NCBI RefSeq assembly: GCF_045037415.1
Contig: NZ_CP173440.1
Origin: Escherichia coli
GTDB taxonomy: Bacteria > Pseudomonadota > Gammaproteobacteria > Enterobacterales > Enterobacteriaceae
Length of the DNA stretch: 64,000 nt
Direction: 5' to 3' (one strand)
A program made the position numbers. Positions 60,001-63,000 of the stretch are shown one piece after another (the first letter of the stretch is position 1; each line of letters starts with the position of its first letter).

Positions 60001-63000
60001 ATTGAGCTCAAGTGCTGTCTTACCGGAATTAAATACCTTTTCATTTCGGTAAGGTTGATGCTGTGGAACATCATTATTTATATTTTCCACCAAATATGTC
60101 CTTCACCTTCGTTGATTAAATCCTTCACCAGACCAATGTAGGTATTCCCTCCAGATTGCTTCATCGCAAAAATATAAGCACTGGTCTCTAGCATTAGATA
60201 GTCTCCCGATGGAGCACCAGGTGGAACCTCTGTAGAGCTAAGACTTTTAATGTACTCCTTTTTAACAATAGAAGGAATGTTGTTTATCATTATTGTTTTT
60301 TCATCAACGATCTTAAAATTCATACTGGTTTCAGCGCCCGCCAGACTTACGGCATGAACCGAGTTTTGCTTAAAGCTCGACAGGCTTGGTTTATTCATAG
60401 TTAGAGAATAAATACCTAGCAGGGTAATAAGTGGAACTATGAAGAAACTAACTTTTTTAATACTCACTATCTTCATCGTCATCAAATCCCCCTTGGGTCT
60501 GGCATGCAGTAATGTAAAGAATTCTAAGTTGATGTAGGAAATTTTCTGCTGTAGCACCACCTACAAATGTTATCATTCTGTTAATTCTGATGCCTGCATC
60601 TTCAAGTTCAAACTCAGCTATTCCACAATCCGACATTATTGTCATCGTGTTTTCATCTGGGTCTTCATCAAGCGAAGGGGGTATAATAATGGATAAGATA
60701 ACAGTATCTACTGGAGCTATTTCCCAATTGTGTTCCTCTCGGGCCATAGGAATTATCTGAATAAAATACCCATCCAGGATCAAAGAAAGTGGATTGCGGG
60801 TGTTGTCAGCAAACCCAAAATTACTGGTTGCTTCTTCGAAGTTTAAGCCAGAGCGCTCAATAATCTTGAGAAGTTCCTGCTTTCGTACCCCATGGTAAAT
60901 CATGCCATCTGTCATCTGTAGTTACTCATGTGCTTTGATGGATAGTGTGTCGCTAAAAATCATACCAAAAACAAAGTATTCCTACCTCAGCCAGAGTGAG
61001 AAAAAGTTAACTTTCGCTCTGAACCTGTAGGTTTATCTAATCTTAGCTTAACATGTAAGCTACCGATATCTGCACCGCTCATAATTCTAAGGGCTCGTAT
61101 TATTCACTTGTTGAACTAGATCATCAATCGAAAGGAACACATTACAACGCGCCAAAAGTTACTTTTATCAGAATGCACACAATTTAGCTCGAATAAGAAT
61201 CTGGATTGTGATTTGGTAACAGGATCTTTAACTTTAGCAATCAGAGTATGCCTTGCTTTTACATTGCAGTATCACCATTTAAAACAATAAGTTATAACGA
61301 AACGCCAAGTGTTTGATAACATGCCTTTTCACTGGATCTGCGCTTACGAATGTGGCACTGAGGCAATTCTTTAACTTTGTAAAGAATGAGTGAGCCCGCG
61401 CTGGAGGTCAGACCTTTGGTTGCATTTAAACCACGTGTGTTACATGCCTACATGGGAATGATTCTCATCAACTATTAAAAAGTCACTTTTACATAAATCT
61501 AACAATGTACTGAAAAAAAATATTGTAAAAATAGCTTTTTTCCTCTCTGGCGACGTCATCACATCCCTCATAAATGTATGATCACACAGAGGTGATAAAT
61601 GACTATTCTTTCAAATCTAAGTATTGACCTTACTGATTTTTCAGGACGAATTCTTATCGTCAGTGACCTTTATGGACATTTTGAACTGTTACTCAAGGGC
61701 CTTTCAAAACTGACCCAGTCCGGTGATGAAGTGGTTGTTATAACTACTGGTAATTTGTTTGACTGGGGCCCTTCCCCCTGTCAGCTGCTTGGGGCAGTGG
61801 TTTACAAAAAATTTGGTGACAGGAAAGTTCATTTTTTCACTGTGGTAGGTTTTCATGAATTACTTATGACTGATGCTATTACTCAAAAGTACCTTAAAAC
61901 CTTCAGGTACTTTCCGGATACACATACTCGTAAACACTGGAGAAGTTTAGGTGGAAGCTGGCATGACTCTTACGACCAGATTTTGCTTGAACGTGATATT
62001 TATAAAATCGATTACCCACTGGTAATAAATCTCAAAACAAAACTAGGAACATACATAATTGGTTCGTCAGATATCCCCCACGATGGTGGTAACTGGAACA
62101 CTCTCATGGCAACCTTGAACAAGTTGGATAACCAAAACTTACGCATTATGGCGAGTAATATAACCAGAACTAGGTATTTTCTAGAATCAGGAAAGACAAT
62201 AGATGATATATCGCTTGTAGTATTAGGGGTGCATCAACCTGATCAATTAAAACGAATTCTCACAGGGCAAACTGAACTAGCTAAATCAACCTTGTGTCTG
62301 TTCCCTAACAACTGGGATGGACTCTCAAATGCACCACTGGATTTCAAAATTCGATTTCTTGACATCACTGAAAGTGAATATGGGAGTTGCTATGAGTTTT
62401 AAGAATTTAGCTTGTGTTATCTTATTGTTTCCAAAAGCAAGCTACGTAATGGCAGGCTCTCAGCTCCAGCTAAGTTCTGATGTTATGGTTGACCAGAAAA
62501 TGAAAAACATTGTTGTCCAAACAAGTTATTTTAAAAACAAAATTGACAACACAAAATTTATTCGAATTAGCAATCACACAAGATCATTCCCATTAATCCT
62601 CTCCTTACCGGAAATTAAATACTCTGTCATCATAAAAAATGGACACAGTACGCTTCTCTCAGAAGATGATGGCATGATTTGGGTAGAACCTGGGAGTAAC
62701 GTCATACTAAAAATTAAAGAAGCTGAAAAACTCTACGATTTCATTCCAATAGTCTACATTACAGGGAAAAAGAAACCAAATGTACTTACTGTTTTACCCG
62801 GTAAAGCAATTAGTGCTGCAAAAGAGACAAAGCTAATTGAATATAAAGTTTCTCCAAATCAAAAAAGAATGTCTCATAATGATAAGGTTGTTAAGTTATC
62901 AGGCTTTGGTAACATAAATAAACTGAAGAAAGGTTTTTATGAAGTACAGGTCGACAAATTTACTTCTGTGAGCTTTGATAAGGAGGCTTTTATAATTACC

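What the first reader, a model, noticed from the sequence alone, without database searches (positions are those of the whole stretch)
61599..62402. Metallophosphoesterase-fold protein with substituted metal-binding motifs
SDLYGHF, GNLFDWG and GFHE align to the canonical GDxHG, GDxxDRG and GNHE motifs but with changes at metal-coordinating positions, suggesting an inactive or repurposed phosphatase.
Basis: inference. Interest (0 to 1): 0.35.

Follow-up and report, generated by a model that had tools for sequence, protein, structure and literature searches.

The report
TrhO: IncHI plasmid dead-site phosphatase homolog
This gene is trhO, an already catalogued conjugation gene of IncHI-type resistance plasmids; it encodes a protein with the fold of phage lambda phosphatase whose two-metal catalytic centre has been dismantled, so it probably works by binding rather than by removing phosphates.

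Summary
ORF 61599-62402 (+) encodes a 267-aa protein homologous to lambda-phosphatase-type metallophosphoesterases: Pfam above its curated cut-off, profile-profile probability 99.9% (E=1.5e-33), and lambda PP as the best PDB match to the AlphaFold model. SDLYGH, GNLFDWG and GFHE align to motifs I-III.

Five of the six metal ligands are replaced: H22->Y, D49->N, N75->F, H139->S, H186->V. Phosphate-binding R53 is W.

The gene is not new. The window is a Klebsiella IncHI1B/IncFIB megaplasmid, and this is the ortholog of R27 trhO (R0015). It is the first gene of the conserved Z operon (trhO-eexB-lipoprotein-trhZ) in transfer region Tra2. RefSeq calls it "metallophosphoesterase" in most of the 1,984 plasmid records that encode a match; an R27 paper calls it "phosphodiesterase".

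What this work adds:
- All 14 TrhO-family representatives carry Asn at the bridging Asp, and none keeps more than three of the six ligands.
- Different clades keep different leftover ligands.
- The gene is under strong purifying selection (dN/dS 0.08-0.19).

TrhO is therefore most likely a non-catalytic pseudo-phosphatase that promotes transfer by binding. That mechanism is inferred, not shown. Interest is modest.

The parts
61599..62402 (+). trhO ortholog: 267-aa cytoplasmic protein with a lambda-phosphatase-like metallophosphoesterase fold (stop codon included)
   Evidence: The ORF is. Homology rests on Pfam, PHROG and PDB matches and hhalign at 99.9%. The AF2 model and Foldseek agree. An identical protein is annotated 'TrhO' in CP031372.2. 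It is 28% identical to R27/pHCM1 TrhO, E=6e-28. No hydrophobic segment or signal peptide was found.
61588..61594 (+). Shine-Dalgarno-like AGAGGTG, four bases upstream of the ATG
   Evidence: Read directly from the sequence.
61662..61682 (+). Motif I remnant SDLYGHF (canonical GDxHG): D23 is kept, H22-equivalent is Y25
   Evidence: Alignments.
61749..61769 (+). Motif II remnant GNLFDWG (canonical GDxxDRG): bridging Asp is N52, D55 is kept, phosphate-binding Arg is W56
   Evidence: N52 is invariant in all 14 TrhO-family representatives; Asp is invariant in all 14 canonical proteins.
61848..61859 (+). Motif III remnant GFHE (canonical GNHE): metal-2 ligand Asn is F85; the general-acid His is kept as H86, in this clade only
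62064..62066 (+). S156, at the position of metal-2 ligand His139 of lambda PP
   Evidence: MAFFT and hhalign agree on this position.
62229..62231 (+). V211, at the position of metal-2 ligand His186 (the GH motif). The adjacent H212 is not invariant within the clade.
62380..63108 (+). Second Z-operon gene: ortholog of R27 R0016 (eexB, entry exclusion), with a signal-peptide-like N-terminus. Its start overlaps the end of trhO by 23 nt.
   Evidence: PGAP coordinates. 24.6% identity to the R27 protein, E=3e-14. R27 gene names come from the PMC7366339 supplement. Sequence shown.
63095..63595 (+). Third Z-operon gene: lipoprotein (lipobox LLTAC), ortholog of R27 R0017
   Evidence: (E=5e-34).
63567..63983 (+). 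Fourth Z-operon gene: trhZ ortholog, with a signal peptide
   Evidence: Annotated trhZ. 43% identical to R27 R0018, E=2e-30.
60916..61598 (.). 683-bp intergenic region between the divergent htdA (AN operon) and trhO (Z operon); presumed to hold the promoters of both
   Evidence: Gene map. Only one weak sigma-70-like match was found, on the minus strand at 61127-61099, which is no more than chance expectation. The regulatory role is inferred from R27 literature (PMC7366339).
60457..60915 (-). htdA ortholog (transfer repressor), first gene of the divergent AN operon
   Evidence: Annotated HtdA.

Best explanation
The ORF is the IncHI1B-lineage ortholog of trhO. It is the first gene of the Z operon (trhO-eexB-lipoprotein-trhZ) in conjugative transfer region Tra2 of IncHI plasmids. 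It encodes a soluble cytoplasmic protein that descends from lambda-phosphatase/PrpA/PrpB-type (PPP-like) binuclear metallophosphoesterases and keeps their fold.

The catalytic centre has been dismantled. The metal-bridging Asp is Asn in every family member. Metal site 2 (Asn75, His139, His186) is gone or nearly gone in every clade. Both phosphate-binding arginines are replaced in most clades.

The protein is nevertheless under strong purifying selection. Its most conserved residues still line the former active-site loops: TGNxFD, G..E and GGxWH.

The most likely mechanism is that TrhO is a pseudo-phosphatase. It would use the vestigial pocket and surrounding surface to bind a partner, whether a protein of the transfer machinery, a regulator or a small ligand, and so raise transfer efficiency. 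It is co-expressed with the three exported Z-operon proteins and probably translationally coupled to them, under TrhR/TrhY activation and HtdA repression.

Shown here: homology, fold, residue substitutions, operon orthology and selection. Taken from the literature on R27: the transfer phenotype and the regulation. Inferred: loss of catalysis and a binding or scaffold role.
For: Homology and fold: probability 99.9%, E=1.5e-33; pLDDT 88.5; lambda PP is the top hit.

Active-site table: across 14 canonical lambda-PP-like representatives the 10 catalytic positions are invariant, apart from one Arg->His. Across 14 TrhO-family representatives:
- D49 is N in 14 of 14.
- N75 and H186 are lost in 14 of 14.
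- R53 is lost in 14 of 14.
- H76 is kept only in the window's clade.
- H22 is kept in 4 and H139 in 2.
This patchwork is what relaxed constraint on catalysis after an ancestral inactivation would produce.

Mutagenesis of the homologous CthPnkp phosphatase shows that each of these residues is essential and that Asp->Asn does not rescue activity (PMC3675462).

Purifying selection: dN/dS is 0.08-0.19 among four diverged alleles. Family-invariant residues are listed.

Identity as trhO and operon orthology. The R27 table names R0015 trhO, R0016 eexB, R0017 lipoprotein and R0018 trhZ, all induced 8-17-fold in an htdA mutant at 25 C.

Phenotype: trhO and trhZ raise transfer frequency and htdA lowers it (review PMC11628540, citing Lawley 2003).

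Localisation: no signal peptide or transmembrane segment.

Precedent for a metallophosphoesterase fold with an incomplete site used as a binding surface: VPS29 (PMC5748213).
Against: No biochemical test exists; inactivity is inferred from sequence alone.

This clade keeps D23, D55, the general-acid H86 and R192, and Asn52 could still ligate one metal. A mononuclear or otherwise unconventional hydrolase is therefore not excluded.

The strong conservation around the old pocket fits residual chemistry as well as it fits binding.

The R27 literature labels TrhO 'phosphodiesterase' and RefSeq labels it 'metallophosphoesterase'.

The primary genetics paper (Lawley 2003) could not be read here. I could not check whether the trhO phenotype was obtained with non-polar mutations.

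No binding partner is identified.

The AlphaFold alignment included canonical phosphatases, so the model is not independent of the sequence homology.
Confidence: 0.7

Rival explanations
1. TrhO is still an enzyme: a non-canonical phosphoesterase or phosphodiesterase, possibly using a single metal. It would use D23, N52, D55 and H86, plus family-specific residues such as H122, to act on a protein or nucleotide substrate relevant to conjugation.
For: The R27 literature and RefSeq name it phosphodiesterase or metallophosphoesterase. D23, D55, H86 and R192 are retained in this clade. The former active-site loops are the best-conserved part of the family, with invariant TGN-FD, E87 and W121-H122. 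CthPnkp can be crystallised with a single Mn on the D/H/D site.
Against: The residues retained differ between clades. H86 and R192 are lost in the IncHI1 and IncHI2 clades, H22 is lost here, and D23 is N in the P0016/P0017 clade. No common catalytic constellation survives beyond N52 and D55. Metal site 2 is destroyed in all members. In CthPnkp, conservative substitutions at these positions abolish monoesterase activity. Scores against the NCBIfam PrpA/PrpB equivalog models are 26 and 23 bits, against cut-offs of 332 and 326.
Confidence: 0.15
2. TrhO's main role is in entry exclusion, or in assembly of the Z-operon envelope proteins (EexB, lipoprotein, TrhZ). It would not be a direct component or regulator of DNA transfer.
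For: It shares a tightly packed operon, with overlapping gene ends, with eexB and two exported proteins in every IncHI lineage examined. [quoted passage not shown]
Against: TrhO has no export signal, so it cannot meet the mature periplasmic or outer-membrane proteins directly. The reported phenotype of trhO is reduced transfer frequency from donors. This rival is compatible with the pseudoenzyme reading and concerns only the partner.
Confidence: 0.12
3. The ORF is a decaying relic, a former phosphatase gene drifting toward a pseudogene, with no present function.
For: Catalytic residues are lost in a clade-specific patchwork.
Against: The ORF is intact in all homologs examined. dN/dS is 0.08-0.19 at dS up to above 2. 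Position and operon partners are conserved across IncHI1, IncHI2, IncHI1B and more distant lineages at only 24-31% identity. It is expressed and regulated in R27, and a transfer phenotype is reported.
Confidence: 0.02
4. The motif resemblance is coincidental and the fold is unrelated.
For: None was found. The single-sequence hits are modest: Pfam E=5.8e-6 and PDB E=2e-4.
Against: The Pfam score is above its curated cut-off. PHROG E=1.7e-12. The profile-profile match is 99.9%, E=1.5e-33, over nearly the full length. The confident AF2 model is closest to lambda PP, followed by PP5, PP1 and PnkP.
Confidence: 0.01

Closest known systems
TrhO (R0015) of IncHI1 plasmid R27/pHCM1 and its IncHI2 counterpart
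   Same: It is the ortholog: 28-31% identity over about 215 residues, E about 1e-28. It holds the same place as first gene of the trhO-eexB-lipoprotein-trhZ operon in Tra2. It shares the Asp->Asn change at the bridging ligand and the loss of metal site 2.
   Different: It is shorter: 267 aa against 308-323 aa. The C-terminal 'INTGS' region and tail of the R27 clade are replaced. It keeps H86 (general acid) and R192 but has lost H22 (Y25), whereas R27 and IncHI2 keep H22 and have lost H76 and R162. Here the operon abuts htdA and trhC directly; in IncHI1 and IncHI2 it is flanked by parM/parR and parA/parB.
Bacteriophage lambda Ser/Thr phosphatase (NinI; PDB 1g5b) and E. coli PrpA/PrpB
   Same: Closest solved structure and closest active family. 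The beta-sandwich core, motif order and spacing are the same, and the 'GGxW' loop is shared.
   Different: Five of the six metal ligands and Arg53 are replaced. There is an insertion of about 10 residues (FRYFPDTHTRK) after motif III, about 7 extra residues before motif III, and a different C-terminal third. Scores are far below the NCBIfam equivalog cut-offs.
[quoted passage not shown]
   Same: It is a lambda-PP-like fold and a Foldseek hit at E=2.7e-5. Its mutagenesis gives the functional meaning of each conserved position.
   Different: Pnkp is an active Mn/Ni-dependent 2',3'-phosphatase with all ligands intact, and it is part of a multidomain RNA-repair enzyme.
VPS29 of the retromer (and, from my own knowledge, the B subunits of eukaryotic/archaeal replicative DNA polymerases)
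   Same: These are metallophosphoesterase folds with an incomplete catalytic site that serve as protein-interaction scaffolds. In VPS29 the partner VPS35 binds the patch around the vestigial site (PMC5748213). This is a functional analogy for how TrhO may work.
   Different: There is no specific sequence relationship; they belong to different branches of the superfamily. VPS29 did not appear among the top 50 Foldseek hits. The setting is eukaryotic or archaeal, not a plasmid. The analogy is an inference, not a test.

Membership tests
Calcineurin-like metallophosphoesterase superfamily (Pfam PF00149), by descent and fold | Significant sequence match to the family model | tested here: met
   PF00149 scores 27.3 bits against a gathering cut-off of 21.5, E=5.8e-6. 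hhalign against lambda-PP-like proteins gives probability 99.9%, E=1.5e-33.
Calcineurin-like metallophosphoesterase superfamily (Pfam PF00149), by descent and fold | Two-layer beta-sandwich flanked by helices, superposable on solved members | tested here: met
   The AF2 model has pLDDT 88.5 and pTM 0.89. The Foldseek top hits are lambda PP (E=9e-11, TM 0.72), then PP5, PP1, PnkP and Rhizobiales-like phosphatase. Caveat: the model's alignment contained canonical members.
Active binuclear metallophosphoesterases (lambda PP / PrpA / PrpB type) | Six metal ligands: D20, H22, D49, N75, H139, H186 (motifs GDxHG, GDxxDR, GNHE, H, GH) | tested here: not met
   Only D23 (=D20) is retained. The others are Y25, N52, F85, S156 and V211.
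Active binuclear metallophosphoesterases (lambda PP / PrpA / PrpB type) | Phosphate-binding arginines (R53, R162) and the general-acid pair H76-D52 | tested here: inconclusive
   R53 is W56. R162 = R192, H76 = H86 and D52 = D55 are kept in this clade, but the first two are lost in the IncHI1 and IncHI2 clades.
Active binuclear metallophosphoesterases (lambda PP / PrpA / PrpB type) | Score above the NCBIfam equivalog cut-offs for PrpA/PrpB | tested here: not met
   NF007425 scores 25.8 bits against a cut-off of 332. NF008516 scores 23.1 bits against 326.
Active binuclear metallophosphoesterases (lambda PP / PrpA / PrpB type) | Metal-dependent phosphoester hydrolysis | not testable with these tools
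   This needs purified protein and enzyme assays.
TrhO of IncHI plasmids | Sequence homology to R27 R0015 (trhO) | tested here: met
   BLASTP gives 28% identity, E=6e-28, to the R27/pHCM1 protein. That operon is 100% identical in NC_002305.1. The identical protein is annotated TrhO in CP031372.2. R0015 = trhO according to the PMC7366339 supplement.
TrhO of IncHI plasmids | First gene of the Z operon (trhO-eexB-lipoprotein-trhZ) inside Tra2 of a MOBH/MPF_F plasmid | tested here: met
   The gene order is the same, and all four products are pairwise homologous to those of R27, IncHI2 and L008. Plasmid typing is MOBH and MPF_F, replicon IncHI1B.
TrhO of IncHI plasmids | Mutation lowers conjugative transfer frequency | not testable with these tools
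   Reported for R27 (review PMC11628540 citing Lawley 2003). It has not been tested for this allele, and the primary paper could not be read.
Pseudoenzymes (pseudo-phosphatase) | Clear descent from an active enzyme family with loss of residues essential for catalysis | tested here: met
   Essentiality of the equivalent residues is shown for CthPnkp.
Pseudoenzymes (pseudo-phosphatase) | Maintained by purifying selection (not a pseudogene) | tested here: met
   Nei-Gojobori dN/dS is 0.08-0.19 in six pairwise comparisons of four alleles. Synteny is conserved across lineages.
Pseudoenzymes (pseudo-phosphatase) | Demonstrated absence of catalytic activity and a non-catalytic function | not testable with these tools
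   This needs biochemistry and genetics.
Anti-phage defence systems containing phosphoesterases | Match to a PADLOC model | tested here: not met
   No hit for TrhO or for the three downstream proteins at E<=0.01.

The most novel reading that the evidence does not exclude
The vestigial active-site pocket of TrhO has been repurposed as a sensor or docking site. Its family-invariant residues are TGN52-F-D55, E87 and W121-H122. It could bind a nucleotide-type ligand (its active relatives include Ap4A hydrolases and 2',3'-cyclic phosphodiesterases). Alternatively it could clamp a specific partner such as HtdA, TrhR/TrhY or a T4SS ATPase. TrhO would then be a plasmid-encoded pseudoenzyme switch that couples the donor cell's state to IncHI conjugation. 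It would be a VPS29-like use of the phosphoesterase fold that I have not seen described in any conjugation system.
Probability: 0.15. Interest if true: 0.6.

Novelty: new variant of a known kind. Interest (0 to 1): 0.3.

Why it matters
IncHI1B/IncFIB hybrid megaplasmids of Klebsiella carry carbapenemase genes such as NDM-1 together with hypervirulence genes. IncHI1 and IncHI2 plasmids spread multidrug resistance in Salmonella Typhi, E. coli and Enterobacter. trhO is one of the few IncHI-specific transfer genes without a mechanism.

Showing that it is a lambda-phosphatase descendant with a dismantled metal centre corrects the working labels 'phosphodiesterase' and 'metallophosphoesterase'. It redirects experiments from a search for substrates to a search for binding partners, and it names precise residues to mutate: N52, D55, H86, W121 and H122.

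The gain is a sharper hypothesis about a known gene, not a new system. Interest is therefore modest.

Tried and rejected
1. The first AlphaFold run used only the eight close homologs and gave an unusable model (pLDDT 47.6). It was replaced by a run on a 31-sequence alignment.
2. The word-indexed homolog search returned only 10 close relatives. The exhaustive profile search was needed to find the divergent TrhO clades, and it showed the family is tiny: 37 hits at E<=1e-3 among 1.8 billion representatives, about 14 of them family members or fragments.
3. Literature: there were no papers combining IncHI with metallophosphoesterase, and none combining pseudophosphatase with conjugative plasmid. 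'trhO' mostly retrieves the unrelated tRNA hydroxylase. Lawley 2003 and Sherburne 2000 are not held, so the primary genetics could not be checked.
4. A defence-system role was rejected: no PADLOC hits.
5. The three downstream proteins, and the three encoded on the other side of trhO (htdA and the two following ORFs), gave only sub-threshold Pfam and NCBIfam matches. The only faint one worth naming is a PEGA-like match for TrhZ, E=0.015.
6. The promoter scan of the htdA-trhO intergenic region gave one weak match, no more than chance. The Z promoter was therefore not located.
7. Model coordinates are not exposed to the scripting sandbox. The 3D clustering of the substituted and invariant residues could not be measured, so residue roles rest on sequence alignment to lambda PP.
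8. The pseudogene and coincidence readings were rejected on dN/dS and profile statistics.
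Full report

Yes. An ATG-to-TAA ORF of 267 codons occupies exactly 61599-62402 on the + strand. A Shine-Dalgarno-like AGAGGTG lies four bases upstream.

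The protein matches Pfam Metallophos (PF00149) above the curated cut-off: 27.3 against 21.5 bits, E=5.8e-6. It matches PHROG 246 'NinI-like serine-threonine phosphatase' at E=1.7e-12. Among solved structures it matches only bacteriophage lambda phosphatase 1g5b, E=2e-4, query residues 17-163.

A profile of 14 family members compared with a profile of 17 canonical lambda-PP-like proteins gives hhalign probability 99.9%, E=1.5e-33, over 219 columns. That is nearly the full length.

An AlphaFold2 model built on a 31-sequence alignment is confident (pLDDT 88.5, pTM 0.89). Its best PDB neighbour is lambda phosphatase (Foldseek E=9e-11, TM 0.72 normalised to the target), followed by PP5, PP1, bacterial PnkP phosphatase and Rhizobiales-like phosphatase.

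**2. What are the substitutions?**

Three alignment methods agree on the register. In lambda-PP numbering against this protein:

| lambda PP residue | Role | This protein |
|---|---|---|
| D20 | metal 1 | D23, kept |
| H22 | metal 1 | Y25 |
| D49 | bridges both metals | N52 |
| D52 | partner of His76 | D55, kept |
| R53 | phosphate | W56 |
| N75 | metal 2 | F85 |
| H76 | general acid | H86, kept |
| H139 | metal 2 | S156 |
| R162 | phosphate | R192, kept |
| H186 | metal 2 | V211 |

Five of the six metal ligands are therefore replaced.

The residue roles come from the lambda PP and CthPnkp structure paper (PMC3675462). That paper also reports that in the lambda-PP-like CthPnkp phosphatase every equivalent residue is essential. 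[quoted passage not shown]

**3. Where is it, and what gene is it?**

The last 4.5 kb of the window is 100% identical to many Klebsiella pneumoniae megaplasmids typed IncHI1B/IncFIB, MOBH, MPF_F. Matches occur on plasmids only in E. coli. From about position 11.8 kb onward the window is largely colinear with phvKpST395_NDM1_1657.

The ORF lies inside transfer region Tra2. On one side, divergently transcribed, are htdA, two small ORFs, a 1413-aa Ig-like protein (the RSP homolog), signal peptidase, TrbC, trhU and traN. On the other side are trhC, traV and the rest of the pilus operon.

RefSeq names the gene 'metallophosphoesterase'. One submitter's record (CP031372.2) names the identical protein TrhO and the fourth gene of the operon trhZ.

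tblastn finds the protein in 1,984 plasmid records. A close clade at 71-100% identity occurs in Klebsiella-type IncHI1B plasmids. A clade at 28-31% identity occurs in IncHI2 and IncHI1 plasmids of E. coli, Salmonella, Enterobacter and Citrobacter, including R27 (NC_002305.1) and pHCM1.

In all of them it is the first gene of the same four-gene operon, and all four products are pairwise homologous:

| Gene | Best E-value |
|---|---|
| TrhO | about 1e-28 |
| second gene | 3e-14 |
| lipoprotein | 5e-34 |
| TrhZ | 2e-30 (5e-37 against the metagenomic locus L008) |

A transcriptome paper on R27 lists these genes as R0015 trhO 'phosphodiesterase', R0016 eexB 'exclusion protein', R0017 'lipoprotein' and R0018 trhZ, all in the Z operon. 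All are induced 8-17-fold in an htdA mutant at 25 C (PMC7366339 supplement). The same paper states that TrhR and TrhY activate the Z operon and that HtdA counteracts them.

A review citing Lawley et al. 2003 says that trhO and trhZ increase transfer frequency and that htdA decreases it (PMC11628540).

The gene is therefore already known and named, and its relation to phosphoesterases is already in the databases.

**4. What is new here?**

An exhaustive profile search of 1.84 billion representative proteins finds only 37 proteins at E<=1e-3. About 14 are TrhO-family members or fragments, and the rest are canonical phosphatases with E-values of 7e-8 or weaker. The two divergent members whose contexts could be fetched also sit in or next to IncHI-like transfer and partition genes. 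The family is thus small and confined to this type of conjugation system.

Across 14 family representatives the bridging Asp is Asn in all. N75, H186 and R53 are lost in all. The other catalytic residues survive only in patches:
- H76 and R162 survive only in the window's clade.
- H22 survives in R27, IncHI2, P0013 and P0018.
- H139 survives only in P0016 and P0017, which in turn have lost D20.

No member keeps more than three of the six ligands. In the 14 canonical representatives all ten positions are invariant, apart from one Arg->His.

This patchwork is what one expects if catalysis was lost once, in the family's ancestor (the shared D->N), and the remaining catalytic residues then drifted independently.

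The protein as a whole is not drifting. Nei-Gojobori dN/dS among four alleles is 0.08-0.19, with dS up to above 2. The residues invariant across the whole family are L11, G16, G26, T50-G51-N52, F54-D55, G84, E87, W114, G118-G119 and W121-H122, plus N237 in a second alignment. They lie largely in the loops that used to form the active site. H122 is a family-specific invariant with no counterpart in canonical enzymes.

**5. How it most likely works**

TrhO has no signal peptide or hydrophobic segment, so it is predicted to be cytoplasmic. The three downstream products all begin with signal-peptide or lipobox sequences. The four genes overlap at their junctions (62380/62402, 63095/63108, 63567/63595), which suggests translational coupling.

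My best explanation (confidence about 0.7) is that TrhO is a pseudo-phosphatase. It would be a lambda-PP-fold protein that no longer hydrolyses phosphoesters. It would use the conserved remnant of the pocket and its surroundings to bind a partner, and so promote conjugative transfer under TrhR/TrhY-HtdA control.

The precedent is VPS29, a metallophosphoesterase fold whose incomplete catalytic site is the docking patch for VPS35 (PMC5748213).

- Shown here: homology, fold, substitutions, family-wide pattern, selection and operon orthology.
- From the literature: phenotype and regulation in R27.
- Inferred: inactivity, the binding role and its location on the protein.

**6. Rivals**

(a) A non-canonical, perhaps mononuclear, hydrolase (about 0.15). 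D23, D55, H86 and R192 remain in this clade and the pocket loops are conserved. However, no catalytic constellation is common to all clades.

(b) A role tied to entry exclusion or to the biogenesis of the Z-operon envelope proteins rather than to transfer itself (about 0.12). This is compatible with the pseudoenzyme reading and differs only in the partner.

(c) A decaying relic (0.02), rejected by dN/dS and synteny.

(d) Coincidence (0.01), rejected by the statistics above.

A defence-system role found no support.

**7. Comparison with what is known, and novelty**

The protein is a member of the TrhO family: homology and operon position were tested and met, and the phenotype could not be tested. 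It belongs to the metallophosphoesterase superfamily by descent and fold.

It fails the defining feature of active binuclear metallophosphoesterases, the six ligands. It also falls far below the PrpA/PrpB equivalog cut-offs: 26 and 23 bits against 332 and 326. It should not be filed as a Ser/Thr phosphatase or a phosphodiesterase.

I rate it a new variant of a known kind: a catalytically degenerate, conjugation-specific offshoot of lambda-PP-like phosphatases. The gene itself is already catalogued.

Interest is 0.3. The result corrects an annotation and focuses experiments on a clinically important plasmid group, but it would not greatly surprise a specialist. The most novel reading not excluded is that the dead pocket is a ligand sensor or partner clamp regulating IncHI conjugation (probability about 0.15, interest 0.6 if true).

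Noticed in passing
window 62380-63983 (+): The three genes after trhO overlap one another and trhO at their junctions (62380/62402, 63095/63108, 63567/63595). All three encode exported proteins: the EexB ortholog with a signal peptide, a lipoprotein with lipobox LLTAC, and TrhZ with a signal peptide and a faint PEGA-like match (E=0.015). None has an informative family hit. Annotated starts of the second gene differ among public records.
   Followed up: partly
window 55185-59426 (-): A 1413-aa Ig-like-domain protein, the homolog of the IncHI 'RSP' conjugal transfer protein. It lies in the AN operon downstream of htdA and two small ORFs.
   Followed up: no
window 60916-61598; compare L004 3302-5955 and L006 3526-5979: In IncHI1 (R27/pHCM1) and IncHI2 the Z operon is separated from htdA by a parM/parR module and from trhC by parA/parB. 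In this IncHI1B-type plasmid both partition modules are absent from these positions. Only a 683-bp intergenic region separates htdA from trhO. A consensus scan found one weak promoter-like site there, no more than chance.
   Followed up: partly
window 3953-4772 and 10843-11662: Two 820-bp IS26-matching segments in inverted orientation bracket a G+C-rich segment (58-61% GC at about 6-10 kb, against 36-50% over most of the rest of the window). This looks like an IS26-bounded accessory or resistance module that is absent from the reference plasmid used for comparison.
   Followed up: no
window 43133-44427 and 45108-46402: Two copies, about 89% identical over 1.3 kb, of an IS200/IS605-type element carrying TnpB (RNA-guided endonuclease family) flank a tnpA. 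A Phd/YefM-RelE/ParE toxin-antitoxin pair lies just upstream, according to the colinear annotated plasmid.
   Followed up: no
TrhO residue H122 (window 61962-61964) and insertion at residues about 98-112 (window about 61890-61934): All 14 TrhO-family representatives share an invariant His directly after the conserved Trp of the GGxW loop. They also share an insertion of about 10 residues (F/Y-x-P/H-x-T...) after motif III. Canonical lambda-PP-like proteins lack both. These are candidate determinants of the new function.
   Followed up: partly
L007 (metagenome contig) and proteins P0016/P0017: A divergent TrhO clade keeps the His139 equivalent but has Asn at the Asp20 position. On the only contig available (4.4 kb) it sits next to a StbA/ParM-like gene and is followed by two ORFs of 333 and 191 aa. 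Its host plasmid type is unknown.
   Followed up: partly
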